From assembly GCA_002245135.1 (NCBI GenBank), contig NGBS01000618.1, positions 1 to 64,000 on the forward strand: 64,000 bases of DNA, given 5' to 3'. The DNA is from Proteromonas lacertae. Taxonomy: Eukaryota. Under the pieces are notes generated by a model. That model made no database searches. It saw only the letters and a program-made list of their open reading frames with translations, and had not been told where the DNA came from. Shown in pieces: positions 450 to 58,864 of the stretch. Both the position numbers and the translations under genes were made by a program. Every line of letters starts with the position of its first letter. The stretch's first letter is position 1.

Positions 450-1678
450 ATGGTTGTAAACATTCAACTCTAAGGCCAGGAGATATTAAACTACCAAGAA
501 TGAAAAGAGAACCTCGTCCGATTATTAATCCACCTCAGAATATTAACAATTTAAATTTTACTTGTGTAGATAAGTCTAATTGTACAAATTATATTGAGCC
601 AGGGTATATATTTATATATTTTCAGATAATTTTCAATTTTTAGATCTTTATATTTTCAAATTTTTCATATAAGCAACTGTTTTAATTCTCATATATACGT
701 TTGTGATGCTACAGCAGCTGTATATATAGATCAGTGTAAAGATTGTATTATTTTGATTGGAGCTTGTGAAGGTGATGTCCTAATTCGTAATTGTTCAATT
801 GCATATTCATTATTACTACTAGTATATTAAGAACAAGAGATGTTGAGAATTGTAGAATTCTACTGTTTTGTGAATCATCTCCAATAATAGAAAAAACTAC
901 TAATATTCAAATAGGTTGTAATACTATAGGATATGAAGAATATAATAGTATATTTACTATATAATATAATAATATGTAGATCAAATTGAATTATGTCGGT
1001 TACATCTATGGAATAACAATGGAGTGAAATAAAAGATTATACACCAGGTGTACAACATTGGCATTTTTTAGAAAGAGTATTAATAGCTTATATATATATA
1101 ATAGGATGATGATTATTTACAATCAAATCATTCCTGATGAAGAATAAGAAGTTGATTAAATATATAAATAACAACATAATACCAGTAACCTATGGATTAA
1201 CATACCCATCAGACAATAGTAATAATGAATTCTTGTTGTTTATATCCAAGGATTATGAATGTATTGCATTTCAAGTGATTGATAAGATTAATAATTATGA
1301 ATATAATAATAGTTGGAATAACAAAACAACGTCAATCACTTCATCTCCAACTAGATCAAGAGTATCATCATCAAATAAAAATTCAACGTATATATATGTT
1401 TTAAGAACATTTTCATTGTTATTTAATACACAAATGTCAAAATATATGTTTCATAAAAATAAAAGTTTCATGAATAGTATTGATAATAGTATATAATAAT
1501 AATAATAATAATAATATATAGAAATGTGATTATAATCCATTGTTATGGTGATAATTCTTTACATCAAATTGGTAATTTAATGAAGGAATATAAACATGAT
1601 TGTTATTATATTCCTAAAAGTTATAAAGAAGGGATGGAAGATATAAAGACTATTTTTACTATATGGAGTGAGAATTAA
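450..1678 (+). CDS. RP2: RP2/XRP2-like protein (TBCC beta-helix, ARL3 GAP); frameshifted in this assembly
   Basis: Spliced pieces read FHISNCFNSHIYVCDATAAVYIDQCKDCIILIGACEGDVLIRNC, LRTRDVENCRILLFCESSPIIEKTTNIQIGC, WNNxWSEIKDYTPG and IIPVTYG, matching RP2 motifs in order, including the catalytic Arg region. Restoring one G at 450-453 gives the MGC acylation N-terminus. Several 1-nt indels are present. Confidence 0.8.
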
Positions 1679-1864
1679 TGTAATTATAAATAGTACAGTG
1701 TAATTTAATTGTTTCATATTGTATATAATATGTTATATAAATAAATCATTAATAAACAATATCATGTATATCTCATAACCAAATCTGTAATTTTGTGTAA
1801 TTATGACATTCTGTTTGACACATTTATTACATTCTCAAAAATCTCATCTGCTGTAAAGACTGTC

Positions 1865-4800
1865 ATGCCTTGTAACAAAAACAAGAAGTCTAGTGAACAT
1901 ATAGACCAAGAAATTATTAAAACCAAAAGTTCAATACAGCGACGGTAATATAGTTGTGGTTAGAGTAAATAGATTAATTGATTATATAGAATTTATGAAA
2001 ATATTGAGAGATAAAATCAATATTGTATCATTAGATGGATGTAAAATTAAAGTAGCTGACTTAATGTTGTACAAAATGAAAAATGATAAAGAATGTTATA
2101 TAACAGATATGAATGGTATATTATCTTCACAAGACAAATTTTTCCTTGCAAAAAGGAAAAAGAAACAAAGCGGAACTTTCGATTTTAGTAAATATGGTGA
2201 AGTAAACTATTTAATTCGAATAGTAAATAGTTTTAAAACAGACTTTGATTCAAATACCTTAGAAAATTGGATGAAATCGGCAAAGTTGTTTATTGATCGG
2301 TATTTGTATAAATGTATAATTGTAAGTGAAAATAATCCCAATCTTACATCATATTATCTCGCGCTCTTCTATATATTCTACAATGAATATAATTCAAACA
2401 GAATATATTGTGATATACTTCGAATTTTTAAATCTTTTGATAATTGTAAGAATATAATCACTTCATATACAATTAGTTTATGTGAAAAATATTCTAATGA
2501 GATATACGTTATAGGGATTGGTAATGATAAGGCAATAGATGATAATTTACTCCATTCTATTTGTTTTATTTCAGTATATCAAACAGATATAAAAAAGAAA
2601 TGGGATTATAATTCAATTAAAACAATCATAGATAAATTAACTCCACTTAAACATGTTTTATGTTCAGAATTACACACATATTACAGTATAATAAAGAATT
2701 ATTTAATATTTTATGATTCTGATATTAATTTGATTGAACAGCTTCCTATAATTCCAACAAATGAAGAAATACATTGCAATGAAGATTTGATATATTCTAT
2801 GCTTAGAGAGAATAAATTAAAAGACTATAACAGTGTTAGAGAATATTTAATAACTCATTATTTGTTATTGAGAGCAGATGTGTTATTGCCATTACAACAA
2901 ACTGTAACTGTATTATTTATATTATGAAATTTATATATATATATATATATGAATAGATTGCCTCTCTTTCAAAAGTAGATGGTAAGAATAGAATGTTTTG
3001 CTTCTCTTACAAGAACGTCAAGTGTAAATCATTTAATTTTGATAGTAGGAAAGGGTTGCTATATGAAATAGAGTTTGATAAACCATATGCTAAACTGAAA
3101 TGGAAATTTTCGTATATATATTTTCTAATTTGTAAATTATTTTTAGAAAACGATTAAAATATGGTGCTTTATTATGTTTAAGTAATGATAACTTTAAAAC
3201 ACTAATATGGTGTACTGTTGAAGATAGAAAAGAGTTGGAAAATGAAAAAGATAATAATAGCAAATCAAAAATTACAATAAAACTGTTAAATACAGGTGAA
3301 TCATTTTGTAGAATGTTGGATTATAAAATATTATATCAAATGGCAGAATCTCCAGAGATATTTTTTGAAGCATACGTATATATATTATTAATATAATTGA
3401 ATAGAAATATACTCTGATGTCTTTAAGCAAAAAATTATTAAATGCAGAATATAAATTACCATTCAAATCCAATTTAGTTGATGGAAAGAAGAAAATATCT
3501 TATCCATCATATATTAAACCATCAACTTCATATAAAATGAAATCTGTGTTTCCTGATTATGAACATCTTAGTATACTTGATAAATGGCCTAGTTATGAAG
3601 AATGCAAAAGTTTAGATGATAGTCAACTAGAAGCATTGAAGAACATGTTAACGAAAGAAATCAGTCTAGTTCAAGTATAATAGTATTAATGATATATTTA
3701 TATAGGGACCTCCAGGAACAGGTAAAACATACGTTGGTTCATTAGCGGTAAAAATTTTATTAGATAATCATAAATATAAAAGTCCCATTTTAATAGTTTG
3801 TTATACAAATCATGCACTGGATCAATTTCTTGAAACATTTACTGATGTGTTAAAACCAGGAGAATTAGTAAGAATAGGAGGTAGATGTAAATCAGAAAGA
3901 CTAGAAGAATATTCATATTATAATTCGAGTAAAAGGAATAGATACCGTTTAGACAGAGATTATGAAGAAATGAATAGACGTGTATTAAATATAAATCATT
4001 CATTTTGCTTATAGGTTTGTAAATTATCGTCTGAATTACATCAAACTTTTTCTGAATATAAGAAGAAAGCAGAAAAACCAATTAGATTTAGCGATTTATG
4101 TGATGCAGAAGTTATAAATAAAGAAGAGAAATACAATTTGAATGAACTAAAGCCACTTGATCCTCTTCCATATATCACTGCAGAAGAATTTAATAGAATT
4201 TATAAATCAAGCAAAGATATGCCATTAAATGATTTTATTGATAAAGAAAAGATGAGTTTATATAATGATCCTCTATACAAGTTCACTCATCAGGATGAGT
4301 TTTCAAAAAATAAGCTGATTAGAGAAAAAGAAGAAAAGAAGAAGAAAATGAATGAAATGTTTATTAATTGGTTCAACCAAGTACATTACTCAGAATATGA
4401 AATATCTATTGATATAAATGATGAGATCAAATTACACAAAGTTGATGAATTCTATAAGATTTATACAAAATACATTCCAAAATATGTAGAGATTTATAGA
4501 AAACACTTTGATCAATATATGTCAGTAGAAATAAAGAGTGGAATATGGCTATTAGAGCATAATGATAGAATTAATTTGAGCAACAAATGGATAAATAATT
4601 ATTATCATCAACAAAATGGAGATAAATTTAAGCAATTTGAAATCTATAAAGAATTATCAGAAAAATCGGAGATGATTAACTGTGAAATAGAAAGACAAAG
4701 ATTAAGAAATACAAAAATGATAGGAATGACAACTACTGGAGCAGCTAAATTAATAGATACCATTAATGAGTTAGGAATTGAAGTGATAGTAATAGAAGAA

Positions 4801-7800
4801 GCAGGAGAAGTATTAGAAGCTCACACTTTATCATTGTTGTGTGAATCATTGAAACATTTGATATTGATTGGAGATCATAAACAATTAAGACCTTCAGTAG
4901 TAAATTTCAATTTAGAGAATAAATATAATTTAACTAGATCGTTGTTTGAAAGATTAGTATTAAATGGAGTTGATTCAGTAATGTTAAAGACTCAAAGAAG
5001 AATGAGACCTGAAATATCTGACTTGATTAGATGTCCATCTTTATATCCAGACTTGAAAGATCATGAAAGTACCTTAAATCGAAGTAATATTCGTGGTTTA
5101 GTTTATAATGTTTATTTCTTTGATCATAATGCTCTAGAACCTGCATTTTATGAACAAAATGAAGAAAGTCATAGCAAAATAAATCCATATGAATGTAAAA
5201 TAATAATTCATTTTATGAAGTATTTACTTCAAGTAGGATATAACCCAGAACAAATAACAGTGTTAAGTTTCTATTTAGGTCAATGTCAATTAATATATGA
5301 AGAATGTAGTAAATTGTTAGGAATACAAACTTCAAAGAAATTTCGAATAATTGCTGTTGACAATTTCCAAGGTGAAGAAAATGATATTATAATTTTCAGT
5401 GCAGTTCGAAGTAATTTAAATAACAAAATAGGATTTTGTAGAGTAGAAAATCGAGTGAATGTTGCTTTATCTCGAGCTAAGAATGGTTTATTTATGTTTG
5501 GAAATATGGATTGTTTAATAAATGGAAGTCATAATCGAAGTGTATTTCCTGAAACGAATTTATGGGATTTTATAAAAGAAACATTGACTAAAAGAGATAT
5601 GATAGGAAAAAGTTTGCCATTAGTATGTCCAAATCACAACGATAGATTTTATTCAATTACAAAAGTTGAAGATTTTAAGAGATATTGTCCAACAGGAACA
5701 TGTGGTCAAATTTGTAAAAGAAGAATGAAATGTGGTCATAGTTGTAAATTGCGTTGTCATTTTGATGAATGTGAAATTCATTGTCAAGAACAATGTATGG
5801 AAATATTACCATGTGGTCATCAATGCAAAGGAAGATGTTCAAAATGTAAAAAGAATGAACTACATAGAAATTGTTTAGAATCATGTGAAAGAAATTTAAA
5901 ATGTGGACATAGATGTCAGAATAAATGTTCAGAAGAATGTACAAGTAAATGTATGGAAATGATAGATGTAACTCTTCCATGTGAACATAATAAGAGAATA
6001 CACTGTTATGAACAATACAATTTAGATATAATAAAATGTTTAAAGGTATATTTAAGTATATGAATATAATAAACATAGAATTGTAATAGGCAAATGAATT
6101 GTAATCATCAATGTAAAGGTAAATGCTATGAATGTAAAAATGGTCATATTGCTTGTTTAGAACCATGTGATAAAATGCTTTTATGTGGACATAAATGTTA
6201 TAATAAATGTTCAGAAGAATGTACAAGTAAATGTATGGAAATGATATATGTAACTTTTCCATGTGAACATAATAAGAGAATACACTGTTATGAACAATAC
6301 AATTTAGATATAATAAAATGTTTAAAGGTATATTTAAGTATATGAATATAATAAACATAGAATTGTAATAGGCAAATGAATTGTAATCATCAATGTAAAG
6401 GTAAATGCTATGAATGTAAAAATGGTCATATTGCTTGTTTAGAACCATGTGAAAGAAATTTAAAATGTGGACATAGATGTCAGAATAAATGTGGTGAAAA
6501 ATGTACAAGTAAATGTATGGAAATAGTAGATGTAACTCTTCCATGTGAACATAATAAGAGAATACACTGTTATGAACAATACAATTTAGATATAATAAAA
6601 TGTTTAAAGGTATATTTAAGTATATGAATATAATAAACATAGAATTGTAATAGGCAAATGAATTGTAATCATCAATGTAAAGGTAAATGCTATGAATGTA
6701 AAAATGGTCATATTGCTTGTTTAGAACCATGTGAAAGAAATTTAAAATGTGGACATAGATGTCAGAATAAATGTGGTGAAAAATGTACAAGTAAATGTAT
6801 GGAAATAGTAGATGTAACTCTTCCATGTGAACATAATAAGAGAATACACTGTTATGAACAATACAATTTAGATATAATAAAATGTTTAAAGGTATATTTA
6901 AGTATATGAATATAATAAACATAGAATTGTAATAGGCAAATGAATTGTAATCATCAATGTAAAGGTAAATGCTATGAATGTAAAAATGGTCATATTGCTT
7001 GTTTAGAACCATGTGAAAGAAATTTAAAATGTGGACATAGATGTCAGAATAAATGTGGTGAAAAATGTACAAGTAAATGTATGGAAATGATAGATGTAAC
7101 TCTTCCATGTGAACATAATAAGAGAATACACTGTTATGAACAATACAATTTAGATATAATAAAATGTTTAAAGGTATATTTAAGTATATGAATATAATAA
7201 ACATAGAATTGTAATAGGCAAATGAATTGTAATCATCAATGTAAAGGTAAATGCTATGAATGTAAAAATGGTCATATTGCTTGTTTAGAACCATGTGATA
7301 AAATGCTTTTATGTGGACATAAATGTTATAATAAATGTTCAGAAGAATGTACAAGTAAATGTATGGAAATGATATATGTAACTTTTCCATGTGAACATAA
7401 TAAGAGAATACACTGTTATGAACAATACAATTTAGATATAATAAAATGTTTAAAGGTATATTTAAGTATATGAATATAATAAACATAGAATTGTAATAGG
7501 CAAATGAATTGTAATCATCAATGTAAAGGTAAATGCTATGAATGTAAAAATGGTCATATTGCTTGTTTAGAACCATGTGAAAGAAATTTAAAATGTGGAC
7601 ATAGATGTCAGAATAAATGTGGTGAAAAATGTACAAGTAAATGTATGGAAATAGTAGATGTAACTCTTCCATGTGAACATAATAAGAGAATACACTGTTA
7701 TGAACAATACAATTTAGATATAATAAAATGTTTAAAGGTATATTTAAGTATATGAATATAATAAACATAGAATTGTAATAGGCAAATGAATTGTAATCAT

Positions 7801-10800
7801 CAATGTAAAGGTAAATGCTATGAATGTAAAAATGGTCATATTGCTTGTTTAGAACCATGTGATAAAATGCTTTTATGTGGACATAAATGTTATAATAAAT
7901 GTTCAGAAGAATGTACAAGTAAATGTATGGAAATGATATATGTAACTCTTCCATGTGAACATAATAAGAGAATACACTGTTATGAACAATACAATTTAGA
8001 TATAATAAAATGTAATGAAATTTGTGAAATATATTTACCATGTAATCATGTTGTAGAACGCTTCTGTTATGAAAATATAAACAAAAGTATATGTGAATGT
8101 AAACATCCTTGTGATATGTTATTAAAATGTGGACATGTTTGTAAAGGTACATGCTTTGAATGTAGAAATGGTCATATTAAATGTAGAGAAATTGTATATA
8201 AGAAAATTAAATGTGGGCATTTTAGAGAATATGAGTGTTTTATTTATAGAAAACATACTTTATTTTGTGGAGTATATTCTTTATTTATATAATCTTTAGT
8301 TTTTGTACAATTTTATTTCTAGTTTATCATATAAGTGTGAAAATCACTGTATGAAGATATTACCTTGCGGACATAATTGTCCTAATAAATGTTATGAACA
8401 TTGTCCATCAATTTGCAGGGTAGTTGAAGAAATAACCTTGCCTTGCAAACATTCAATCGAAGTAGAATGTAATGAAAAGTATAAAACATATATTTCACCA
8501 TGTAATATTGTGATGAGTAAAACATTATCATGTGGACATACAATACAGTATTTATGTTGTGAAAGAGACTCTAGAAAGTCATATTATTGTCCAAATCAAT
8601 GTGAAATCACATTAGATTGTGGTCATAGATGTAGAGGTATTTGTGGTGAGTGTGTTATGTGTAATAAACATAAGCTATGCAATGAACCATGTGATAAAAT
8701 GCTTTTATGTGGACATAAATGTTATAATAAATGTTCAGAAGAATGTACAAGTAAATGTATGGAAATGATATATGTAACTTTTCCATGTGAACATAATAAG
8801 AGAATACACTGTTATGAACAATACAATTTAGATATAATAAAATGTTTAAAGGTATATTTAAGTATATGAATATAATAAACATAGAATTGTAATAGGCAAA
8901 TGAATTGTAATCATCAATGTAAAGGTAAATGCTATGAATGTAAAAATGGTCATATTGCTTGTTTAGAACCATGTGATAAAATGCTTTTATGTGGACATAA
9001 ATGTTATAATAAATGTTCAGAAGAATGTACAAGTAAATGTATGGAAATGATATATGTAACTTTTCCATGTGAACATAATAAGAGAATACACTGTTATGAA
9101 CAATACAATTTAGATATAATAAAATGTTTAAAGGTATATTTAAGTATATGAATATAATAAACATAGAATTGTAATAGGCAAATGAATTGTAATCATCAAT
9201 GTAAAGGTAAATGCTATGAATGTAAAAATGGTCATATTGCTTGTTTAGAACCATGTGAAAGAAATTTAAAATGTGGACATAGATGTCAGAATAAATGTGG
9301 TGAAAAATGTACAAGTAAATGTATGGAAATAGTAGATGTAACTCTTCCATGTGAACATAATAAGAGAATACACTGTTATGAACAATACAATTTAGATATA
9401 ATAAAATGTTTAAAGGTATATTTAAGTATATGAATATAATAAACATAGAATTGTAATAGGCAAATGAATTGTAATCATCAATGTAAAGGTAAATGCTATG
9501 AATGTAAAAATGGTCATATTGCTTGTTTAGAACCATGTGAAAGAAATTTAAAATGTGGACATAGATGTCAGAATAAATGTGGTGAAAAATGTACAAGTAA
9601 ATGTATGGAAATAGATAGATGTAACTCTTCCATGTGAACATAATAAGAGAATACACTGTTATGAACAATACAATTTAGATATAATAAAATGTTTAAAGGT
9701 ATATTTAAGTATATGAATATAATAAACATAGAATTGTAATAGGCAAATGAATTGTAATCATCAATGTAAAGGTAAATGCTATGAATGTAAAAATGGTCAT
9801 ATTGCTTGTTTAGAACCATGTGATAAAATGCTTTTATGTGGACATAAATGTTATAATAAATGTTCAGAAGAATGTACAAGTAAATGTATGGAAATGATAT
9901 ATGTAACTTTTCCATGTGAACATAATAAGAGAATACACTGTTATGAACAATACAATTTAGATATAATAAAATGTTTAAAGGTATATTTAAGTATATGAAT
10001 ATAATAAACATAGAATTGTAATAGGCAAATGAATTGTAATCATCAATGTAAAGGTAAATGCTATGAATGTAAAAATGGTCATATTGCTTGTTTAGAACCA
10101 TGTGAAAGAAATTTAAAATGTGGACATAGATGTCAGAATAAATGTGGTGAAAAATGTACAAGTAAATGTATGGAAATAGTAGATGTAACTCTTCCATGTG
10201 AACATAATAAGAGAATACACTGTTATGAACAATACAATTTAGATATAATAAAATGTTTAAAGGTATATTTAAGTATATGAATATAATAAACATAGAATTG
10301 TAATAGGCAAATGAATTGTAATCATCAATGTAAAGGTAAATGCTATGAATGTAAAAATGGTCATATTGCTTGTTTAGAACCATGTGATAAAATGCTTTTA
10401 TGTGGACATAAATGTTATAATAAATGTTCAGAAGAATGTACAAGTAAATGTATGGAAATGATATATGTAACTCTTCCATGTGAACATAATAAGAGAATAC
10501 ACTGTTATGAACAATACAATTTAGATATAATAAAATGTAATGAAATTTGTGAAATATATTTACCATGTAATCATGTTGTAGAACGCTTCTGTTATGAAAA
10601 TATAAACAAAAGTATATGTGAATGTAAACATCCTTGTGATATGTTATTAAAATGTGGACATGTTTGTAAAGGTACATGCTTTGAATGTAGAAATGGTCAT
10701 ATTAAATGTAGAGAAATTGTATATAAGAAAATTAAATGTGGGCATTTTAGAGAATATGAGTGTTTTATTTATAGAAAACATACTTTATTTTGTGGAGTAT

Positions 10801-13800
10801 ATTCTTTATTTATATAATCTTTAGTTTTTGTACAATTTTATTTCTAGTTTATCATATAAGTGTGAAAATCACTGTATGAAGATATTACCTTGCGGACATA
10901 ATTGTCCTAATAAATGTTATGAACATTGTCCATCAATTTGCAGGGTAGTTGAAGAAATAACCTTGCCTTGCAAACATTCAATCGAAGTAGAATGTAATGA
11001 AAAGTATAAAACATATATTTCACCATGTAATATTGTGATGAGTAAAACATTATCATGTGGACATACAATACAGTATTTATGTTGTGAAAGAGACTCTAGA
11101 AAGTCATATTATTGTCCAAATCAATGTGAAATCACATTAGATTGTGGTCATAGATGTAGAGGTATTTGTGGTGAGTGTGTTATGTGTAATAAACATAAGC
11201 TATGCAATGAACCATGTGATAAAATGCTTTTATGTGGACATAAATGTTATAATAAATGTTCAGAAGAATGTACAAGTAAATGTATGGAAATGATATATGT
11301 AACTTTTCCATGTGAACATAATAAGAGAATACACTGTTATGAACAATACAATTTAGATATAATAAAATGTTTAAAGGTATATTTAAGTATATGAATATAA
11401 TAAACATAGAATTGTAATAGGCAAATGAATTGTAATCATCAATGTAAAGGTAAATGCTATGAATGTAAAAATGGTCATATTGCTTGTTTAGAACCATGTG
11501 ATAAAATGCTTTTATGTGGACATAAATGTTATAATAAATGTTCAGAAGAATGTACAAGTAAATGTATGGAAATGATATATGTAACTTTTCCATGTGAACA
11601 TAATAAGAGAATACACTGTTATGAACAATACAATTTAGATATAATAAAATGTTTAAAGGTATATTTAAGTATATGAATATAATAAACATAGAATTGTAAT
11701 AGGCAAATGAATTGTAATCATCAATGTAAAGGTAAATGCTATGAATGTAAAAATGGTCATATTGCTTGTTTAGAACCATGTGAAAGAAATTTAAAATGTG
11801 GACATAGATGTCAGAATAAATGTGGTGAAAAATGTACAAGTAAATGTATGGAAATAGTAGATGTAACTCTTCCATGTGAACATAATAAGAGAATACACTG
11901 TTATGAACAATACAATTTAGATATAATAAAATGTTTAAAGGTATATTTAAGTATATGAATATAATAAACATAGAATTGTAATAGGCAAATGAATTGTAAT
12001 CATCAATGTAAAGGTAAATGCTATGAATGTAAAAATGGTCATATTGCTTGTTTAGAACCATGTGAAAGAAATTTAAAATGTGGACATAGATGTCAGAATA
12101 AATGTGGTGAAAAATGTACAAGTAAATGTATGGAAATAGTAGATGTAACTCTTCCATGTGAACATAATAAGAGAATACACTGTTATGAACAATACAATTT
12201 AGATATAATAAAATGTTTAAAGGTATATTTAAGTATATGAATATAATAAACATAGAATTGTAATAGGCAAATGAATTGTAATCATCAATGTAAAGGTAAA
12301 TGCTATGAATGTAAAAATGGTCATATTGCTTGTTTAGAACCATGTGATAAAATGCTTTTATGTGGACATAAATGTTATAATAAATGTTCAGAAGAATGTA
12401 CAAGTAAATGTATGGAAATGATATATGTAACTTTTCCATGTGAACATAATAAGAGAATACACTGTTATGAACAATACAATTTAGATATAATAAAATGTTT
12501 AAAGGTATATTTAAGTATATGAATATAATAAACATAGAATTGTAATAGGCAAATGAATTGTAATCATCAATGTAAAGGTAAATGCTATGAATGTAAAAAT
12601 GGTCATATTGCTTGTTTAGAACCATGTGAAAGAAATTTAAAATGTGGACATAGATGTCAGAATAAATGTGGTGAAAAATGTACAAGTAAATGTATGGAAA
12701 TAGTAGATGTAACTCTTCCATGTGAACATAATAAGAGAATACACTGTTATGAACAATACAATTTAGATATAATAAAATGTTTAAAGGTATATTTAAGTAT
12801 ATGAATATAATAAACATAGAATTGTAATAGGCAAATGAATTGTAATCATCAATGTAAAGGTAAATGCTATGAATGTAAAAATGGTCATATTGCTTGTTTA
12901 GAACCATGTGATAAAATGCTTTTATGTGGACATAAATGTTATAATAAATGTTCAGAAGAATGTACAAGTAAATGTATGGAAATGATATATGTAACTCTTC
13001 CATGTGAACATAATAAGAGAATACACTGTTATGAACAATACAATTTAGATATAATAAAATGTAATGAAATTTGTGAAATATATTTACCATGTAATCATGT
13101 TGTAGAACGCTTCTGTTATGAAAATATAAACAAAAGTATATGTGAATGTAAACATCCTTGTGATATGTTATTAAAATGTGGACATGTTTGTAAAGGTACA
13201 TGCTTTGAATGTAGAAATGGTCATATTAAATGTAGAGAAATTGTATATAAGAAAATTAAATGTGGGCATTTTAGAGAATATGAGTGTTTTATTTATAGAA
13301 AACATACTTTATTTTGTGGAGTATATTCTTTATTTATATAATCTTTAGTTTTTGTACAATTTTATTTCTAGTTTATCATATAAGTGTGAAAATCACTGTA
13401 TGAAGATATTACCTTGCGGACATAATTGTCCTAATAAATGTTATGAACATTGTCCATCAATTTGCAGGGTAGTTGAAGAAATAACCTTGCCTTGCAAACA
13501 TTCAATCGAAGTAGAATGTAATGAAAAGTATAAAACATATATTTCACCATGTAATATTGTGATGAGTAAAACATTATCATGTGGACATACAATACAGTAT
13601 TTATGTTGTGAAAGAGACTCTAGAAAGTCATATTATTGTCCAAATCAATGTGAAATCACATTAGATTGTGGTCATAGATGTAGAGGTATTTGTGGTGAGT
13701 GTGTTATGTGTAATAAACATAAGCTATGCAATGAACCATGTGATAAAATGCTTTTATGTGGACATAAATGTTATAATAAATGTTCAGAAGAATGTACAAG

Positions 13801-15402
13801 TAAATGTATGGAAATGATATATGTAACTTTTCCATGTGAACATAATAAGAGAATACACTGTTATGAACAATACAATTTAGATATAATAAAATGTTTAAAG
13901 GTATATTTAAGTATATGAATATAATAAACATAGAATTGTAATAGGCAAATGAATTGTAATCATCAATGTAAAGGTAAATGCTATGAATGTAAAAATGGTC
14001 ATATTGCTTGTTTAGAACCATGTGATAAAATGCTTTTATGTGGACATAAATGTTATAATAAATGTTCAGAAGAATGTACAAGTAAATGTATGGAAATGAT
14101 ATATGTAACTTTTCCATGTGAACATAATAAGAGAATACACTGTTATGAACAATACAATTTAGATATAATAAAATGTTTAAAGGTATATTTAAGTATATGA
14201 ATATAATAAACATAGAATTGTAATAGGCAAATGAATTGTAATCATCAATGTAAAGGTAAATGCTATGAATGTAAAAATGGTCATATTGCTTGTTTAGAAC
14301 CATGTGAAAGAAATTTAAAATGTGGACATAGATGTCAGAATAAATGTGGTGAAAAATGTACAAGTAAATGTATGGAAATAGTAGATGTAACTCTTCCATG
14401 TGAACATAATAAGAGAATACACTGTTATGAACAATACAATTTAGATATAATAAAATGTTTAAAGGTATATTTAAGTATATGAATATAATAAACATAGAAT
14501 TGTAATAGGCAAATGAATTGTAATCATCAATGTAAAGGTAAATGCTATGAATGTAAAAATGGTCATATTGCTTGTTTAGAACCATGTGATAAAATGCTTT
14601 TATGTGGACATAGATGTCAGAATAAATGTGGTGAAAAATGCACTGATATGTGTAGAGCAGTAGTTACAGTACAACTTACATGTGGACATAATAAGATAAT
14701 ATATTGTTACCAACAGCATAATATGAGATGTGAAGAAGTATTATATTCTCAAATTTATATATTCTTATAGCCATGTGGAAACATACTTCCCTGTGGTGAT
14801 AAATGTCAGAATAAATGTTATGAAAAATGCACAACTGAATGTAAAGCAATAAAGAGAGTGAAACTTCCATGTCAGCATTATAAAAGAATATATTGCTATC
14901 AACAATACTATTTAAGAGATATTGCATGTGATGAGATAGTGAATGTGAAATTGAAATGTGGACATGTAGTTCAAGTTAAATGTCGTGAGAAAGAAAATAT
15001 TAAAAGAGAAGTATTAAATATTGTTATTTATTGTTTTAATAGAGATGCAAGGCAATGGTAAAAATTCCTTTAAATTGTGGTCATTATAAGGATGTAATGT
15101 GCTGTGAAAAGAATAAACAAACACATTGTGAAACAATGATTTATCATACTCTTCCTTGTGGTCATTCTAAACGAATCATGTGTTTTCAAAAGAATTATAC
15201 TCATATTAAATGTGAAGAAGAATGTGGAGCTATATTGCCGTGTAGACATAGATGTAAAGGAATATGTTATAAATGTCAACATTCTCATTTAAAATGTACA
15301 GAAGAATATAATTTGAGACTACCGTGTGGTCACTATAGAACAGTCATGTGTTTTCAACGTAGTTATACTAATTTAAAATGTAGAACTTGTAGGCATAGAT
15401 AA
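1865..15402 (+). CDS. ZNFX1: ZNFX1-like UPF1/SF1B RNA helicase with hugely expanded NF-X1-type Cys/His zinc-finger tail (multi-exon, roughly 4,100 aa by my estimate)
   Basis: Walker A (VQ|GPPGTGKT) is split by an intron near 3677-3705. Also present: VCYTNHALDQFLE, GMTTTGAAK, IEEAGEVLEAH, LIGDHKQLRP, QRRMRPEI, VDNFQGEENDIII and NVALSRAK, followed by C-x3-L-x-CGH-x-C repeats. The many 83-aa ORFs in the track join in frame once the 33-nt introns are removed. There is one +1 indel at ~9611-9615. Confidence 0.9.
5872..14640 (+). repeat. Tandem array of 282-bp units (33-nt intron + 249-nt exon), 22 intron copies, organised in a ~2524-bp higher-order repeat
   Basis: ORF starts recur every 282 bp (6094, 6376, 6658 ... 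14513). A unique block recurs at 8303, 10828 and 13352. The intron gtatatttaagtatatgaatataataaacatag (first copy 6046-6078) is identical in every copy I read. Confidence 0.97.
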
Positions 15403-19378: not shown

Positions 19379-19547
19379 AAAATACCATTTAGTGAAAGAA
19401 TAAAGTATTATTTAACAACTACTGCTATCCAGCCGATTATAGTTAGTTATTATTCATATTTTCCAAAGTTGACATTAGTTACTATAATGTTGAATGATTC
19501 AATAAAAGTAAAAGATAGTTCATGTACTTGTGTTTATCATCAATTCT
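19379..19547 (+). repeat. 169-bp inverted copy of 20314-20482 (coding segment of the HECT-like gene)
   Basis: Reverse complement aligns without gaps (coordinate sum 39861), with about 6 substitutions. Confidence 0.95.
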
Positions 19548-19777: not shown

Positions 19778-22700
19778 CTACATCTTCTGTAAAGAGTGGA
19801 TGAATTTATATGACAAAAATTTGTACATATCATAAGGTACAACTGCCAATACTCCCTTTCGTATATATTCTATACTAACATTATAACAGAAATGATATGA
19901 ATCAAAATCACCGTTAGATATAAGTTGATCAGTGTATGACTTAAACACTCCACTATTATTCTCATTCATACTATTAGTTAAAATATCAACATCAATATCT
20001 TCAACAGATAAACTATCATTAAACAGTAATTTCCAGAAATAAACAGGAAAATATTGAAGTATATCAAAACTTACTGATTCTAGTATTAATCCAATTAATA
20101 CACCTATTCCATAATAATCCTTTTCCAAATAAACACTCTTTCCGTTTATATTGATCATATATTTACCACTTCTATTACTAAATAAGTATTTATGATTCAT
20201 TGCTACATATAATATATAAGAAATTGATATTTGTTGATAAGATTGATTTAATATTGACAATGAATGAGTTAAAGCAGTTTTCTTACAGTTTGATATATTC
20301 CATATATTATTTAAGAATTGATGATAAACACAATTACATGAACTATCTTTTACTTTTATTGAATCATTCAACATTATAGTAACTAATGTCAACTTTGGAA
20401 AATATGAATAATAACTAACTATAATCGACTGGATAGTAGTAGTTGTTAAATAGTACTTTATTCCTTCACTAAATGGCATTTTTGAGATACTTAATACATG
20501 CTTATTACTTGTAGATACAATACTTTGGTTTAATCTTGATAAACAGTATATTCTAAAACATAAATGATATAGTAATCTCTTCTCAATTATTTCTTTCATT
20601 ATTTCTTTATCATTCTTCAACATATTATTAATTATGGATTGTTTATTTGATGTAATAAAATCAAATTTCATTATACATTCATCATATTTGTATTTCCATT
20701 CATCCCACTTATATAAGAATGAATATTTATCTTCTTGATCTTCTTTACAACACTCTATATCATCATTAACTACACATTCATTATCTTTAATCTCTACATT
20801 ATAACATGAAGATTTATAAACATCATAAAAGAATTCTTTTCTGTTATTCATTTTATCTTTGTATAAGAAATATTGAATGGTAGTATATAATTCATTTAAT
20901 AATTTATTATTATCATCTGATTCATGATGATGATGGTTCAGTTCATATAACAATTTTATACATTCTGATGTATTTACTAATTTTGAATTTTTACTCGAGG
21001 AAACTATACCTTTTGATTCTTCAGTGCAATAATAATAATAAGGATTATTATTATTATTATGTAAAACTGAATATAACTGTCTCAATTCAATAAATTTATC
21101 ACCATTTCCTTTCTCTACTTCTATTTCCTTATATTTATTATTAGCTGTTGATAGATTTAAATCATAATTTGATGGTATAAAATATAACAATGATGTTAAA
21201 CAGGATAGTATATTGTTATATTTATATAATGAATCATATTGGTTATTATATTCCTATATAATAATATAAATAATGAATAATATTATTTATATACTTTTAA
21301 TTTATAAACTTTGCTCACTACATTTGATTTCTTATTATGTAAAATGAATGAATTGAAATCATTATCTATCACCAATATATACCAATCATTACAATTCTGG
21401 TAAGTTAATGGTATTGAATATAAAATATTAGTTTCTTCTACCAAATCTTTCTTCACTAATGATGTATACTTGCAATTAATATCATATAAGTCACCTAATG
21501 AGACATATCCTATGTGACTATGTTGTCTTACAAATGGCAATTCATTCATCAACTTGTATGAATTTACACGCGATCTAAATATACCGTAAAAAAATAAGAA
21601 TTAAAGAAACAATAACAGAATGGTTATTAGAATATTCAAAAAAGAAAAAGATATAATATTTGAATCATTTATCATTACAGGTGATATACTATTTTGGTTA
21701 TTTGATAATTCTGATGGAATAATTGATTGATATATCGAATTATCACTCATTTTAGTGAATCTAATATCATTGGTTGATTCTAGTAAATCTGACTGTTGAT
21801 ATAATATATTCAGTGGTAATTCATTAATTGAGAATATGTATAAAGTATAACCATACAATGTATCTTTATCTTCTTCACAATCACAACTAAAATGAATATT
21901 CAATTCTTCAATATTACCTACTGGTATTAGATTCATTGGTTTATATTCATTCTTAAATTCATAAGAATTATCTTCAGTTTTGAAGGTTAAAACAGCACCT
22001 TCAGATAGTTTTAGTGTTGAGATGTATATATATGAATTTGGTTTTGTTATTGCTACATGTTCTTCATAATTACATTTCTTTGGATGATTATGGAATGACT
22101 CTGATAGATAATAATTACATTTATATTTCTTTAATGCTTCTTTCATTTCAATATCATACATTTTATTCAAAGTATCTTTATATCCATTCATTTCTTCATT
22201 GTTAGTTGTAGTTAGCAGTATATTCTTAAGATTCTTGTTTATTGATAATAAATACTTCATTTCAACTGTATCATTTCCATCTATTGACTTACAGTAATTC
22301 ATATAATATTTCGATAATATTTCTGGCTTCATATTATTCAATAATAAACACCTATTCATCAACTGCAACATATCTGAGTATATCAATTGATATATCTCAT
22401 TCATATTCACATCGTTAAATGATTTATTATTGAATGACATACATCTCAAATTAGATACTCTTTCATACTTCGGTATTATCATATTCAAACTATTATTCTC
22501 AATTTTCACTTTAACTGTATTTTCATCTTCGACTTCTATAGCTTTACCAAAGTATAATGAATCTTTATTACTATTTACTATCAAAACATTCTCATTAACA
22601 TCAACAACTTCTTTCTTTTTATTATAATCACTTTCAATGGTTGAGACTTTGATTAAATAGAATAATGATTCTTCTGGTTTAGTATAAGATTCTATTTTTT

Positions 22701-25700
22701 CTTCTATTCACATTTATAATAATAATAATAATAATAATAATATATACCATTATCACTTGAATTGGATTCTAAATAAACAGGATGACTTTCACTCAATAAT
22801 ACTGTAGCTAAATAAGTGGAAGTATTTAATGCAACAACCATATAATCAGCTTTATGATCTTCATATAGATATTTCAAATGAGTTTTATGTAAATAACAAC
22901 CATAACATACATTTGAATCTTTCAGATATTCTTTTAAAACAACAGGACAGAATATTTTATCACTAATATTATAATACAAATCATATGGCAAATCATTGAT
23001 AATTGTAGGTTTTAACTTTGGTTTTAATGATAATAGTTTATTCTCAAGATGCAATTCATTGATTAAATCATTTGATATAATATGGCTAGTAATATTATCA
23101 GAATAAACTATTGAACTATCTCTCTTCTTTAGTTCTAATACTTTGGGCTTTGTATATCGTTTTGGTATTTTCTTGTCAAATAAATCAGAATCATCAGAAT
23201 CATTATCATCATCTGATGGATCTGAGAGATTATTATGATTGGAACTATTTGAATCAAATACTGTACTGATATTGTGACCATCATCATCACCTAGACTATC
23301 ATCAATATAGAAATCTGAAGCAAACATCCTTAAATTGTTAATAAACGTATCTTCATCTTCATCATCAAATTCTTTACCATTATCACTTAATTCTTCATCA
23401 AATTCATCATCAAATTTCAATTGAACTGGTTCTTGCATTGTTAAGATTGGAGATGTATATGATCCGTATTTCTCTAAGATCTTAGTTTCATCATTTTCAT
23501 ACATCAAACATATAATCTTGGCTTGAGAGTAAGTTTTACAGAATTTTGAATTACTGATTTTAGCACATAAATCAGCTGAGAGATTTGTACAATCATATGG
23601 TCTACTGCCACTACCGTTATTTTCATCATTATCATCATCATTATCATAACTATTATATTCTGGTTTCTTTATTGATAATGGAAAACTATCCGTTATTCTG
23701 ACTTTTGATTGGTTGATCAAATTCAACATATATTCTATTAATTCTTCATTATATTGATTAGGTATAAAATCAATTACATTCTCATATTTATTGTAATAAT
23801 CATAAAGTGTGGTAATACTATTGAATAAATTATTCTTTTTGTTGTTATTATCATAATATTTGATATATCTATTCATAAATCTCATGATTAAGTTTTGTAT
23901 AAAACATTTTGTGACAGTTACTTCATTTATCTTTAATAACTCCATAAATACTTTGTGTATTTCTTCACTATGAATGATATATTCTGTGGGTAAATCATAT
24001 GTTATTGGTGGTTCTTCGACTATAGTCTCTTTGTTCAAATTCATACTATCAACATTATATTTCATCTTCCATATTGATGTATTACTATCTTTAATAATGG
24101 TGTTATTACTAAAAGTATATAATTCTAATACTCCAATAACAAATGGTAATGATTTGAGTGTAAATTTCTCTAAGATTAACTGTTGTAATTCATCTGAAAT
24201 TGGTTTAACTTTAAACATTATTCTCAATAACAATATAATGTTGTGAATGAACTTTATATTCACTATTTCATTATCATGTTTATTATTCAAACTATTACTA
24301 TAGTAATCTCCAATTGTATTAATAAACAATTCTAACAGAGAAGGTAAAGTATCAACCTTCTTATCCAATATATTCATATTCTTATATACTATAGAAACAT
24401 TCTTTATTACTAACAACTCTATTATATCAAATGATAATTGAGTTAAATAAGGAATGTTAAAATTCCAAACATTATATAAAAACTGAATCAAATTTACATC
24501 TACAATATCTTTCAATACAAGTTGTTGTCTTTTCAATTCATAATATAAATAATCTAAGAAATTGCTTAGATTAATTATGACTTTGGTTTTCATATTACTA
24601 TTTGTTTTTACATCTTTTATACTGTTATATAATATAATCTCTTTCATAATATATTCCTTAATAATCTTATTATTACCATTTCCTCTGTTACTACTATTAT
24701 CATTACATTGTTTCAATAATGAATATATTATATTTACTGATTTACTATATGATTCATAATAATAAAGTGTATCATTATTCTCTATCTCATTATCTATTAC
24801 TAATTTCTTATATTCTGATTCAGATACTTTGGTAGAATAACATAAACTACTTCCAATTGCAGTAATCATCTTCAATGTAAATATATTATTATCTTTTGCC
24901 TTATTGATTTGGTTAATATATTCCAACAGTTTCTCATAACTAATACCACTTAATAATACTTCAGCTGTTCCATTTATGGTGGATATATTTGTCTCTGGTA
25001 AAAAATATGATGGAGTGTTAAATATATATGATAATAACACTGATGGTGGATATAATATTCTGCTTCCTTCTATTAATGATAGTGTTGGATTAATATAATA
25101 ATTAGAATCAGTATAATCTTCTCTGATTTTACCAAAAAAATAATTATCATTTGGTTTTTCATTATTCTTTCCTGAATATTTGTGTTGGTAATAACTGTAA
25201 CTCAATAAATCAGAAATATCTTCATTTATTGATAACTTTCTAAAGTATTTATTATACAATTTTTCTCTTTTATAATCAATCATTCCATATATCATCTTAG
25301 TCATTTCATCATACTCATTCATTGACAATAAAGGTAATAACTTTGTACTAATATCACTGTTAATATATTTCTTAAAATAACTCAATAATTCAATCAATAC
25401 TTTAATCAACATATAATTATGTTTTTTTACTTCATTTAGTATTAAATCAACTAATATATTTGATATAAAAACAAAACCTTCTTCTTTCTCTTTATTATAT
25501 TCATAATAATCATTTGTATTAGATGAATAAACATATTTATAAACACTTTTAATGAAATGATCTAATTCATAATGAGATAAGTCTTTCATATAATCATTAA
25601 TAGATTTAACAAACTCAACTAATTCACCATTTTCTAATAACTTCACACCATAACGGAATGACTGAGCTATTGATTCAGTTAAACAATATAAAGATGAGAA

Positions 25701-28700
25701 TATAAATGGTATATCAGCTGTATTGTAATTCTGAATTGAGCATGATTGTACTGAAGCAGAATCACCAACTGTAACTAATTCTAATCCAATCATAAAAGGA
25801 AATGAATCTTGTGATTCTAATGGTATTGAAGAATTGCTACCAAATAAACATAACTGATGGTATTGGTTCAATTAACATATTGATACTTTTACCTCTCATA
25901 ATCAATTATTAATGTAATGACAATATCCCGTTTATTATTGTCAGTAATTTCAAATATTTTGTTATTTTTCTTAACTTTACCATTTGAATAGATGAACAAT
26001 TCACCTTTATTACTAATTTGATAGATTTCTTTCTCAGTGAAGAAGTTAATATAGCATCTTCCTACATTATTAGATGGAATTGTAATATTATAACAATGTT
26101 GATATGATTGAGGCAATATTGATTTTATCTCAACTTGTTCAAAGAATGGAACATTTACATTCTTTGCTATATTCAGAATTCTTATTACATGATTCTTCAT
26201 CTGGTGCTTCAGTATTAGGTTGTACACGATACACTGTTGATTTATCATTTGATAAAATAATATTATAATTATCATTGTCATGTTCCGCTGACTCATTGAT
26301 TTGAAATTTCACTGGTAAAATGGATTGAGGTGGATCAACCAATGAATTATTATTATTATTATTATTATTATATGTTACACATTCCAACAATATGAATTTC
26401 ATTCCACTACCTCTCGTAACTGATATTGATGGAATGATTCCAACTCCTTTATTAATTGGATATGAATCAATAGATGTAATGAGGAAATTATTTATGCAAA
26501 CTTTCAATTCACCTTTTATCCTATTAATATAGAATTCTAATATGTCATTATCACCTAATTCATGTTTATTATATATTGAAATCATCTTCTTCTTATCATA
26601 ATAAGATATATTCCATTTTAATTCTTCATTTACTCCAATTACTATATTATTCTCACTATTATCAATACTCTTAAATCCAAAAATACATTTTCCTTTCAAC
26701 TCTCTTATACAAATTGTATATTTTATTATATCATCATATGAAGGTTTAGTGTAATTCAATACTGATAGATTATTACTAATACATTCATATATAAAACTAT
26801 TACCATTATAACTATTGTTATTACTGATATTCCAATTATTGCTAAACTCTGTACCTTCACATGTAAAATACCCTATCTGTTGAATATCACTATCTTCATG
26901 ATATTTAATATTGATTATTGAATCATAATATTCCTTTGCGATTGGCTCCATCTCTTTATATTCATTCTTACACTCACATAGAGTAGTATAGATTGTATGT
27001 AAATATTGAATATTGACATTCTCATAAGGTAATGGTAAATTAGTGATAAATGAACATGTGGTATAGTGTAAATAGTTCTTCATTTTGATTGGATATTCTT
27101 TACATTCTTTAATATTTAATGATTGAACTGTACAGAAATTAGATAAACACTCTAAATACTTATCAAGACTTTTAGTTGGTGGAATTATACTATACTCAAA
27201 TCTTTGAATAAAGAATAATAAATGGAAGAATAAACTAGACTGTATGTCTCTTATATTACTAATTGATTTTGATTGGATGAAATTGTGGTAAATTCCTTCA
27301 AAATCAACTTCAATAAACCATTGAGCATTAACTAAATAATCAAATATTATCTCAATAAAATTATATAACAATGTTATTGTTGATTCATCTTTATCTATAC
27401 TCATTAACAATTGATTTACTCCATTATAATCTATCCAATGAGATACAAAGGTTAATAACAAGTCGATAGACTTTTTATATTCTTCATTAATATTACCTTC
27501 GTTACTTAATACTAATTTCAATGTATGAATACAGAAATTTAACGGATTTTGATTGGATATAAAATCTACACTTCCTTTAATGCAATCTATTAATTCATTA
27601 TTGATAAATGGATAGATTTCATTGTTATTATTCAACAATATAAACAATATATTATCTATCTTTAAGAATAATTCATAATATTCCTCTTCTTGGAGAGATT
27701 GAATTGTTGAATTACTTTTCTTATGATTATTATTGCTGTTGTTACTATTATTGTTAATATTATTTATCATATCAGAATAGGATTTATAGAATTGACATAT
27801 ATTCTTAAGTATTGATATAAATCTAGTTTCATTTTTAGATACATCATTTCTTTTATTCTCATTATCATTATTTACCATATTTAACATTTCATATAATATT
27901 TTCAAAGTATTTAAATCTGTTTTTAACAAGAATGTATCACTATCATCTACATTTTTACATAATTTTATATGACTAAACAAATAGTTTATTAAATCATCAC
28001 TATTCTGTATTTTACTAAAGAACATATCATTTCTTTCTTGACAAAATGCACAAACTATTGAATCAAATGGATTGATAAAACTACAGTTAGGACATTTATA
28101 ATAAAAGTTACCTTCAATTTCATCTTCATCAACGTTTACTTCATATTGTAATTTATCATCATGAAAATATAATATCTTTTCTAATAGCATATTATTTGGA
28201 TTTATATCTTCTTTAGTCTTTGCTTCTGTATTTGCTGTTGCTGTTGTTGAAGAAGAAGAAGAAGATGATGATATTGGTGATGCTAAAGCAACATATCCTT
28301 CTAATTTATCATCTTTCCAATAACCATAATAATATTTATTAATTCCTTTCAATTTAGCAACGCCAGCACCATATTTCTTCTTATTACGTAATTGACCAGT
28401 CCAATTTTCTCTTATTTCTTCATTCTTTACATCATAATTCAATGTTGTTATTCCCGTTACTGGTGATTCACATGTTATTGATCTTATTTCGATTTTTCTT
28501 GTTTTACCATAGAAACAGACTGCTGGATAAACAGTTGGATATAAATCTACAAATCCAATAGCTGGTTCACTATTATTTACTGAAAAATATAATTTCTTAG
28601 CATCCATATCAAAAGTAACATTTACTACATCATTCGAATGTATTTTACTTATCTTATCTTGATGATTTCTTCCGTATAATGAACCATTATAACTTCTTAA

Positions 28701-51700: not shown

Positions 51701-52121
51701 TAATAATCATCAAAAAACATCAATCTTAAATACAATATCATCAATTAACCAAATATATGTTTATAATTATAATGAAAAAATGAAGATCAATAGAAAATAT
51801 AATCTAGTTATTAATGATTCTAGATCAATATCTGACCTTTTTAAAACATTTCCATCTATTCATTATTATTCAATTATATCCTTCCATAGTGGAGAAAATA
51901 TTCATTTTGGTATTATAAAGTCAATAAATAATTCGCAAATCCATTATAATGAAATAAATGTTACAAAAATTACATTAACAATATACAAATATATAAGCAT
52001 TACTACATTGGATAAAATTGTTGATATAAATGATATTATTATATTTAATAATATATTCAAATTCAGTGATGTAGAATATTATATCTTTATTAGTGAAATA
52101 ACATTCTATAAAGATTTGTAG
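48729..52121 (+). mobile_element. CACTA/EnSpm (CMC superfamily)-like DDE transposase ORF, 1130 aa, intronless; element ends not found
   Basis: An acidic tract is followed by ISQDKVNKLLKQL, LQISSDG, SIVGDMIG...HNFVGSNSFCRTC, FDAMH and HDLVHLIKYLSNIGP...VYER. This is the motif order typical of Tnp2/EnSpm-type transposases. Confidence 0.75.
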
Positions 52122-55264: not shown

Positions 55265-55467
55265 AACTGATTAATTATATTGTTTTTATTAATATATGTT
55301 TGTATAAATCGGTTATGACCTCTAGTAAGTATTAGTTGACCTCTTTTGTAGTATGTGTTTCTAATCATAAAATCATGTATAAACATATTAAGCTATATAT
55401 ATCATTCAACAAAAGATAAATTAACAGACGGTTGATTATTAACATTTGATTATTATCTCATCTAAAC

Positions 55468-58172: not shown

Positions 58173-58864
58173 ATCTAAACTGAAACTCAATACTGGATAA
58201 TCCACAATATTCATTGTTATTACACTAATTATTAAACAACTTCCTTGACAATTTGTATTGATTTGAGATACTACATCGTAAGCAGCTGTGCAGCTTATAT
58301 CTTTCATTTTATAACTTCCTTTATATACTAAATTTCTTTCATTTGTTATAAAGGAAGTGATTATCTCATAACTTTTCATTAAGTGGTGATAATTGTAATG
58401 GTAATTTATTATACAGTAATGCGATAACATACAGTTTACTTAGTCGTAACTATCAAAACTTAATGAAAAGTTATGAGATAATCACTTCCTTTATAACAAA
58501 TGAAAGAAATTTAGTATATAAAGGAAGTTATAAAATGAAAGATATAAGCTGCACAGCTGCTTACGATGTAGTATCTCAAATCAATACAAATTGTCAAGGA
58601 AGTTGTTTAATAATTAGTGTAATAACAATGAATATTGTGGATTATCCAGTATTGAGTTTCAGTTTAGATGAGATAATAATCAAATGTTAATAATCAACCG
58701 TCTGTTAATTTATCTTTTGTTGAATGATATATATAGCTTAATATGTTTATACATGATTTTATGATTAGAAACACATACTACAAAAGAGGTCAACTAATAC
58801 TTACTAGAGGTCATAACCGATTTATACAAACATATATTAATAAAAACAATATAATTAATCAGTT

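What the first reader, a model, noticed from the sequence alone, without database searches (positions are those of the whole stretch)
6046..14497. The repeat unit is a symmetric phase-0 exon plus a 33-nt stop-containing intron, copied 22 times
Seen: every intron falls between codons (AAG|gt...ag|AAT), is 33 nt long and contains an in-frame TGA (retention reads VYLSI*). The standard exons are 249 nt. Skipping any number of standard exons therefore keeps frame, and retaining any one intron terminates the protein there. Inference: one locus could yield a ladder of helicase isoforms with 0-22 modules and different variant orders, a splice-tunable cassette array. It also shows intron gain by tandem duplication in progress.
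Basis: partly seen in the sequence, partly recalled or inferred. Interest (0 to 1): 0.7.

Follow-up and report, generated by a model that had tools for sequence, protein, structure and literature searches.

The report
Giant zinc-finger tail on antiviral helicase
A relative of the antiviral RNA helicase ZNFX1 carries about 108 predicted zinc-finger turns in this assembly (the human protein has twelve fingers) because a 282-base piece of the gene holding one ordinary tiny intron is repeated head to tail; the introns are likely all spliced out every time rather than used as a switchable cassette.

Summary
In detail: 22 identical 33-nt GT-AG introns, phase 0, with in-frame stops, mostly between 249-nt exons. 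It is the zinc-finger stalk of a ZNFX1-like helicase gene (about 1995-15402, 33 predicted exons). The features read as design are by-products. 33 nt is the commonest predicted intron length here. 75 of 77 introns end in TAG, so any phase-0 intron of 3n length holds a stop. Copying a segment that contains one intron makes symmetric exons automatically, and the array's ends lie inside exons. Skipping would need a 315-nt excision (longest predicted intron 72 nt), and Paramecium, with similarly tiny introns, shows none. Relatives also duplicate fingers at DNA level (up to 9 near-identical copies, 54 finger turns). Best reading: a recently expanded, intron-bearing coding minisatellite, constitutively spliced. 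Left open: the protein ends in fingers with no E3 module found, and the acceptor is weak, so leaky retention could give shorter-stalk forms. Splicing was not tested with RNA.

The parts
1995..15402 (+). ZNFX1-like SF1 RNA helicase gene, 33 predicted exons, about 4118 aa if the one extra base is discounted; start uncertain (another ATG at 1865)
   Evidence: Pfam ZNFX1, AAA_11, AAA_12; PDB 9q9z E 2.1e-81
3147..3375 (+). exon with the ZNFX1 domain (PF25396)
   Evidence: E 3.2e-12, 46.8 bits, cut-off 27
3706..3981 (+). exon starting with Walker A GPPGTGKT; a 31-nt intron (3675-3705) lies just before it
3982..4014 (+). unrelated 33-nt, phase-0, TAG-ending (stop-containing) intron in the helicase part: the same 'special' features outside the array
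4015..6045 (+). large exon: helicase motifs II-VI and the first four finger turns; the repeat begins inside it at about 5871
5871..14629 (+). tandem array, 282-bp basic unit (249 coding + 33 intron; three finger turns); both ends lie in exons
6046..14497 (+). 22 identical 33-nt phase-0 introns, starting at 6046, 6328, 6610, 6892, 7174, 7456, 7738, 8852, 9134, 9416, 9699, 9981, 10263, 11377, 11659, 11941, 12223, 12505, 12787, 13901, 14183, 14465
6079..6327 (+). 249-nt exon, version A (7 copies: 6079, 7207, 8885, 9732, 11410, 12256, 13934)
6361..6609 (+). 249-nt exon, version B (9 copies: 6361, 6643, 7489, 9167, 10014, 11692, 11974, 12538, 14216); differs from A at 19 bases, all within positions 93-178
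6925..7173 (+). 249-nt exon, version C (1 copy), two bases from B
9449..9698 (+). 250-nt exon with one extra base at about 9615, at the join of two higher-order copies; it is the union of the B and C readings; likely a consensus error, otherwise a real frameshift
7771..8851 (+). block D (3 identical copies: 7771, 10296, 12820): 501-nt exon, 28-nt phase-0 intron (8272-8299, 10797-10824, 13321-13348), 552-nt exon; 13 finger turns of older, diverged type
7089..14589 (+). three higher-order copies of about 2524 bp: 0 mismatches in 2526 bp (copy 1 vs 2) and 0 in 2450 bp (copy 2 vs 3)
14738..14770 (+). diverged 33-nt phase-0 intron at the same place relative to the finger cysteines as the repeated intron (13 of 33 bases identical, no better than unrelated 33-nt introns): likely an older copy of the position
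15043..15402 (+). last exon: six finger turns, then stop; no RZ finger or E3 module found

Best explanation
The array is the zinc-finger tail of a ZNFX1-like RNA helicase gene, likely lengthened by recent unequal crossing-over that copied a three-finger, one-intron segment and then a 2.5-kb block of such segments, and all its introns are likely spliced out constitutively to give one very long protein. Shown: the anatomy, the family assignment, the exonic array ends, the perfect identity of copies, and the ordinariness of the intron. Inferred: (1) crossing-over between neighbouring homologous finger triads made the first copy, and further unequal exchange amplified and homogenised exons and introns alike; (2) each intron is recognised across its 33 bases (intron definition), so exons are joined in order; (3) retained introns are errors, removed by nonsense-mediated decay if the organism has it; (4) stalk length varies at the DNA level between alleles or strains; (5) by analogy with human ZNFX1, the helicase binds and unwinds RNA and the fingers form a rod used in multivalent contacts, here without a detectable C-terminal E3 module. 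The copy number 22 and the single frameshift are probably not exact.
For: Family: Pfam ZNFX1/AAA_11/AAA_12, best PDB match human ZNFX1 9q9z at E 2.1e-81, next best UPF1 at 5.7e-26, all six helicase motifs looked for are present. Module: best and only PDB sequence match of the repeat profile is the finger region of 9q9z (E 0.067); the one-exon model (pLDDT 69.6) matches 9q9z with prob 0.87, rmsd 2.4 over 51 columns, E 0.4; both weak. DNA-level origin: array ends in exons, mosaic exons at both ends, 0 mismatches between higher-order copies. Ordinary intron: modal length, TAG acceptor 75 of 77; outside this gene 9 of 9 phase-0 3n introns end in TAG and three are also 33 nt. Relatives: near-identical tandem duplications inside the finger array in 10 of 120; up to 34 finger turns in one unbroken reading frame among 50 loci with a closed frame, so long stalks need no exon cassettes. 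Literature: no exon skipping in Paramecium and 80.1% of its introns NMD-visible on retention (PMC5663052, passages); frame-keeping skipping is largely an animal trait, Tetrahymena an exception (PMC6142364, passages); human fingers form a rigid stalk that mediates polymer contacts (10.1101/2025.10.14.682297 and PMC13710534, passages).
Against: Splicing was not observed here; it rests on gene prediction and on other organisms. The intron catalogue comes from my own gene finder, seeded with nine introns of this gene and capped at 79 nt, so it cannot exclude long introns. 8 of 9 distinct introns of this gene are phase 0 against 28 of 68 elsewhere (binomial P about 0.005 by hand, about 0.01 if the two homologous positions count once; post hoc). 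The repeated acceptor ranks 66 of 77, with a slightly better-scoring AG 11 nt downstream and a second GT 10 nt inside. At 3% error per intron only 38% of transcripts would be fully spliced over 32 introns. As assembled, the frame breaks at residue 2370. PMC6142364 lists species where skipping goes with short introns.
Confidence: 0.7

Rival explanations
1. The array is real but its size is partly an assembly product: the middle or all of the 2.5-kb higher-order copies may be duplicated or collapsed, and the extra base comes from mixed reads. Compatible with the best explanation.
For: 0 mismatches over 2.5 kb twice; the one extra base sits at a copy join and equals the column-wise union of the C reading (left neighbour position) and the B reading (right neighbour position).
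Against: The order A B B C A B D / A B E A B D / A B B A B D / A B is not strictly periodic, and the end exons are mosaics, which a simple mis-join would not make.
Confidence: 0.3
2. Leaky retention of the weak, repeated intron yields a ladder of stable shorter proteins. Because the protein ends in fingers with no terminal domain, a truncated form has the same build (helicase plus n fingers) as the full one.
For: Weak acceptor and competing sites; errors compound over 25 array introns; no RZ or E3 module; in 20 of 50 related loci the frame also ends within 60 residues of the last finger (some may be introns or errors).
Against: The donor is strong (rank 14 of 77) and the summed score is mid-range (44 of 77); stops in such introns are the rule; such variants are mostly errors cleared by NMD in Paramecium (PMC5663052).
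Confidence: 0.1
3. A regulated exon-skipping cassette array.
For: All array exons but one are phase 0-0 and 3n; brown-algal ROCO genes have one-repeat exons with annotated splice variants (PMC11378527, passages); phase-0 excess in this gene.
Against: Needs 315-nt or longer excisions against 22-72 nt predicted; only three module versions; identical introns give a regulator nothing to tell copies apart (inference); no unusual RNA fold to loop out an exon (z -0.36); no skipping in Paramecium.
Confidence: 0.04
4. The extra base is real and this allele makes a protein cut at about residue 2370, or is decaying after runaway expansion.
For: The assembled sequence says so; a one-base misaligned crossover between B and C would give the same string.
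Against: It is the only lesion in 8.7 kb, all downstream exons are open and all splice sites intact, and it has the look of a mixed consensus.
Confidence: 0.15
5. The 33 bases are not an intron but are read through under a changed genetic code.
For: The insert is a multiple of three and in frame.
Against: It would need TGA, TAA and TAG all as sense codons, yet none occurs in 677 codons of the adjoining exon; removal restores the conserved cysteine spacing; ends match the window's intron consensus.
Confidence: 0.01

Closest known systems
[quoted passage not shown]
   Same: ZNFX1 domain, UPF1-like SF1 helicase, finger array directly after the helicase with the same cysteine spacing.
   Different: About 108 finger turns against twelve fingers in human (PMC13710534) and 9-54 in 221 relatives; no RZ or E3 module found; N-terminal ARM domain not detected; the array is split by tiny introns.
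Invertebrate and hagfish ZNFX1-like proteins with duplicated fingers (P0005, P0009, P0013, P0101, P0118)
   Same: Recent near-identical tandem copies inside the finger array.
   Different: 2-6 copies there (up to 9) of 25-56-residue units (one pair at 156); here about 22 copies of an 83-residue unit with an intron and a higher-order repeat.
[quoted passage not shown]
   Same: Candidate immune genes with same-phase, same-size repeat exons (PMC11378527, PMC3341825, passages).
   Different: Those repeats are diverse, under diversifying selection, in a long-intron genome, with annotated splice variants; here copies are nearly identical and introns are 33 nt.
PRDM9-type coding minisatellite
   Same: A zinc-finger array behaving as a homogenised tandem repeat (PMC3890296, search listing only).
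   Different: PRDM9 fingers are C2H2, bind DNA and lie in one exon (recalled); here the unit carries an intron.
Intron gain by tandem genomic duplication
   Same: Intron number rises through intragenic duplication.
   Different: The named mechanism makes a new intron out of duplicated exon sequence with AGGT (PMC3443670); here an existing intron is copied.

Membership tests
ZNFX1 family | ZNFX1 domain PF25396 before the helicase | tested here: met
   46.8 bits, cut-off 27
ZNFX1 family | UPF1-like SF1 helicase, closer to ZNFX1 than to UPF1, motifs intact | tested here: met
   (E 2.1e-81 vs 5.7e-26)
ZNFX1 family | Array of NFX1-type fingers directly after the helicase | tested here: met
   alignment runs into the fingers; cysteine spacing; weaker support. 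Pfam zf-NF-X1 itself did not hit any exon
ZNFX1 family | N-terminal ARM domain | tested here: inconclusive
   Exon 1995-2909 matches 9q9z only at residues 385-474 (E 0.026); first 244 residues match no relative
ZNFX1 with E3 activity (human type) | C-terminal RZ finger and Miz/Z-ring module | tested here: not met
   An RZ profile from 19 of 120 relatives finds nothing in the gene (its one weak hit, at 630, is a TBCC domain); the frame stops four residues after the last cysteine; neighbouring genes match no relative
ZNFX1 family | RNA binding, unwinding, antiviral or small-RNA role | not testable with these tools
   needs biochemistry or genetics
Alternatively spliced repeat-exon arrays (ROCO, Dscam type) | Same-phase, frame-keeping repeat exons | tested here: met
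   except the 250-nt exon
Alternatively spliced repeat-exon arrays (ROCO, Dscam type) | Sequence-diverse alternative exons | tested here: not met
   17 standard exons give three versions; A and B differ at 12 of 83 residues
Alternatively spliced repeat-exon arrays (ROCO, Dscam type) | Transcripts with different exon sets | not testable with these tools
   needs long RNA reads
Intron gain by tandem genomic duplication (strict sense) | Intron sequence derived from duplicated exon sequence around AGGT | tested here: not met
   The intron is an AT-rich consensus intron with four stops, not a copy of the exon; definition
Coding minisatellite with higher-order repeat | Head-to-tail, near-identical units with exonic ends and mosaic variants | tested here: met
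Coding minisatellite with higher-order repeat | Copy number varies between alleles or strains | not testable with these tools
   only one assembled sequence was available

The most novel reading that the evidence does not exclude
This microbe makes a ladder of ZNFX1-like helicases with stalks of a few to about 108 fingers from one gene: an accordion-like DNA array sets the maximum, and leaky retention of 22 identical weak-acceptor introns cuts the stalk at regular steps into stable, working proteins, possible because no terminal domain is lost.
Probability: 0.1. Interest if true: 0.7.

Novelty: new variant of a known kind. Interest (0 to 1): 0.3.

Why it matters
If the assembly is right, this is a ZNFX1-like protein with about twice the finger count of the longest of 221 relatives examined and about nine times the human count, and with no E3 module found. 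The stalk's function is stated to be unknown (10.1101/2025.10.14.682297), so a natural extreme suggests that length itself is evolvable, perhaps for multivalent assembly, and that the stalk does more than link helicase and ligase. It is also a clean case of one intron multiplied 22-fold with no divergence, and a natural test of how splicing errors compound. The building blocks (repeat-exon duplication, stop-containing 3n introns, coding minisatellites) are all known, and the splice-cassette idea has no support, so the interest is moderate to low.

Tried and rejected
No whole genome is held for this window, so paralogues and genome-wide intron statistics could not be examined. The search for sequencing runs listed none (no RNA holder listed), so no reads were laid. 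No earlier scan findings. The search of 50%-identity representatives never ran, so longer finger arrays may exist unseen; searches covered 1186-3385 and 1845-5872 residues, best 120 rows each. The metagenome scan found no close relative (best 49% identity), so the ancestral exon structure could not be compared; TRF on those 80 loci showed only two-copy finger duplications in four loci (L053, L056, L060, L072; a fifth hit, L031, lies upstream of the helicase). Pfam zf-NF-X1 did not hit the exons. The Atlas gave NF-X1-type clusters at 0.92-0.93 but with low recognition, a weak lead. Foldseek gave nothing at E 0.001 or better. RNA folding of intron-exon-intron was no better than shuffles. The 12 changed against 1 silent codon between A and B was not taken as positive selection: about 85% of sites are non-synonymous and the differences are a patch from older paralogous fingers. 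Long minus-strand frames over the array (up to 833 aa) were rejected: one frame of the unit simply lacks TTA, CTA and TCA. My gene finder rescued the frameshift with a 28-nt intron at 9591-9618; rejected as forced (rare donor, removes cysteines) and dropped from counts. A recalled eight-base signal for stops made by polyadenylation is absent from the plus strand of this gene. A changed genetic code was rejected. Paper searches listed no study of ZNFX1 finger-array expansion; one search returned nothing; PMC2791625 is not held. No supplements were read.
Full report
Setting. The window is about 25% GC and comes from a eukaryote with very short introns; an IFT80 gene points to a flagellated organism. 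I did not identify it further.

Observation. One search finds exactly 22 identical 33-nt GT-AG elements from 6046 to 14497, each between AAG and AAT. Seventeen of the 21 intervals are 249 nt (7 of version A, 9 of B, 1 of C), one is 250 nt, and three are identical 1081-nt blocks that contain a 28-nt intron and split into 501 and 552 nt. The boundaries are right: removal gives C-x3-C-x5-C-x-H, seen in 749 of 755 such motifs in 120 relatives, and the three alternative GT/AG pairs shift the frame. A changed code is excluded because the adjoining 677 codons hold no TAA, TAG or TGA.

The gene. The array is the 3' two thirds of a gene from about 1995 to 15402 with 33 predicted exons. It has the ZNFX1 domain, AAA_11 and AAA_12, all six helicase motifs looked for, and matches human ZNFX1 (9q9z) at E 2.1e-81, with the alignment running into the first fingers. 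The repeat profile and a one-exon model each pick the ZNFX1 finger region, weakly. Counting C-x-H turns gives 108, with three assumed for the frameshifted exon. The frame ends four residues after the last cysteine; an RZ profile finds nothing in the gene and no neighbour matches a relative. RZ is often absent in relatives too (motif in 19 of 120), but only 5 of 120 end within 60 residues of the last finger; among metagenome loci 20 of 50 closed frames do (55 of 80 loci had the anchor motif).

Is the intron special? I built a small gene finder trained on the window's long frames and nine introns of this gene, with lengths limited to 20-79 nt, dropped three gene calls (an antisense overlap, a poor call, a duplicate) and one forced intron, and kept 77 distinct introns. 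The mode is 33 nt (9), 36 are phase 0, 75 end in TAG. A phase-0 intron of 3n length ending in TAG must hold an in-frame stop: 12 of 12 do, 9 of 9 outside this gene, three of them also 33 nt. Two more such introns sit in this gene at 3982 and 14738. Shuffling the interior gives a stop in 83% of trials. These are predictions without RNA support and the seeds bias the lengths.

How the array arose. The repeat begins inside the helicase exon and ends inside the exon after the last intron; both end exons are A/B mosaics. Copying such a segment in frame yields symmetric exons by necessity. Above the 282-bp unit lies a 2524-bp unit in three copies with 0 mismatches in 2526 and 2450 bp. I infer recent unequal crossing-over and homogenisation. 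The intron at 14738 lies at the same place relative to the cysteines, while homologous positions in block D and the last exons have none, which suggests older rounds; gain or loss cannot be polarised. Relatives do the same on a smaller scale: 10 of 120 have near-identical tandem copies in the finger array (rows needed two finger turns in the repeat and a single helicase motif), and 11 of 221 have three to nine copies of a cysteine-containing 15-mer (at least P0021's lies outside the array). Up to 34 turns occur in one unbroken frame.

The extra base. The 250-nt exon breaks the spliced frame at residue 2370. The base lies at the join of higher-order copies 1 and 2, and the three homologous positions read C, then the union of C and B, then B. 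That is what mixed reads give in a consensus; a misaligned crossover could give it too. I put about 70% on error (judgement). Either way the copy number is not secure.

Splice-tunable cassette? Skipping one exon needs a 315-nt excision; the longest predicted intron is 72 nt, though my model could not call long ones. Paramecium, with 20-35-nt introns, showed no exon skipping, and 80.1% of its introns are NMD-visible on retention (PMC5663052, passages). Frame-keeping skipping is mostly an animal trait, with exceptions (PMC6142364, passages). The real precedent, brown-algal ROCO genes, has diverse repeats and long introns (PMC11378527, PMC3341825, passages); tandem exon duplication is common in animals (PMC9013439, passages). 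Here there are three module versions, identical introns and no unusual fold. Against my reading: 8 of 9 distinct introns of this gene are phase 0 versus 28 of 68 elsewhere (P about 0.005-0.01 by hand, post hoc); the acceptor ranks 66 of 77 with competing sites nearby; and errors compound, leaving 72%, 38% or 19% full-length at 1%, 3% or 5% per intron. Since no terminal domain would be lost, retention could give shorter proteins of the same build.

'Intron gain'. In the strict sense this means a new intron made from duplicated exon sequence (PMC3443670, passages). Here an existing intron was copied.

Function. In human ZNFX1 the fingers form a rigid stalk that mediates polymer contacts and whose exact role is unknown (10.1101/2025.10.14.682297, passages; PMC13710534). 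By analogy this protein is likely an RNA-sensing helicase with a greatly lengthened rod and no ligase; this is inference.

Verdict. Observation confirmed with corrections; interpretation partly supported; a new variant of a known kind. Searches listed no paper on such an expansion, within a library lacking most subscription journals. Interest 0.3.

Noticed in passing
window 52429-55467 and 58662-61700: A 3039-bp inverted repeat at 100% identity; each arm holds a predicted 377-aa, five-intron gene. The spacer carries an intronless hAT-type transposase frame at 56330-57913 (DUF659 and Dimer_Tnp_hAT). Could be a large element with a captured gene in its arms, a hairpin-derived duplication or an assembly product.
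   Followed up: partly
window 58173-58669; 62219-62478 with 63741-64000; 19379-19547 with 20314-20482: Further inverted repeats: a 93% near-palindrome beside the transposase, a 260-bp pair at 99.6% and a 169-bp pair at 96%.
   Followed up: no
window 33231-35492 (-): Intronless IFT80 gene, a sign of a flagellated organism; a TBCC-domain gene lies at about 500-1529.
   Followed up: partly
window 19778-30368 (-): A predicted 3406-aa gene with 10 introns and a SPRY/Neuralized-like domain; function unexplained.
   Followed up: no
window 48729-52121 (+): A predicted 1119-aa, very AT-rich gene with no Pfam match.
   Followed up: no
window 5675-14663 (-): Long antisense open frames (up to 833 aa) over the array; a by-product of one frame of the unit lacking TTA, CTA and TCA.
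   Followed up: yes
L043, L040, L049, L058 (one contig): Four ZNFX1-like matches within about 95 kb of one 153-kb metagenome contig: a tandem gene cluster in a relative.
   Followed up: no
L069, L073, L077; P0002, P0003: Relatives with 32-33 finger turns ending 36 residues after the last finger; and proteins with large internal duplications of about 1300-1450 residues.
   Followed up: partly
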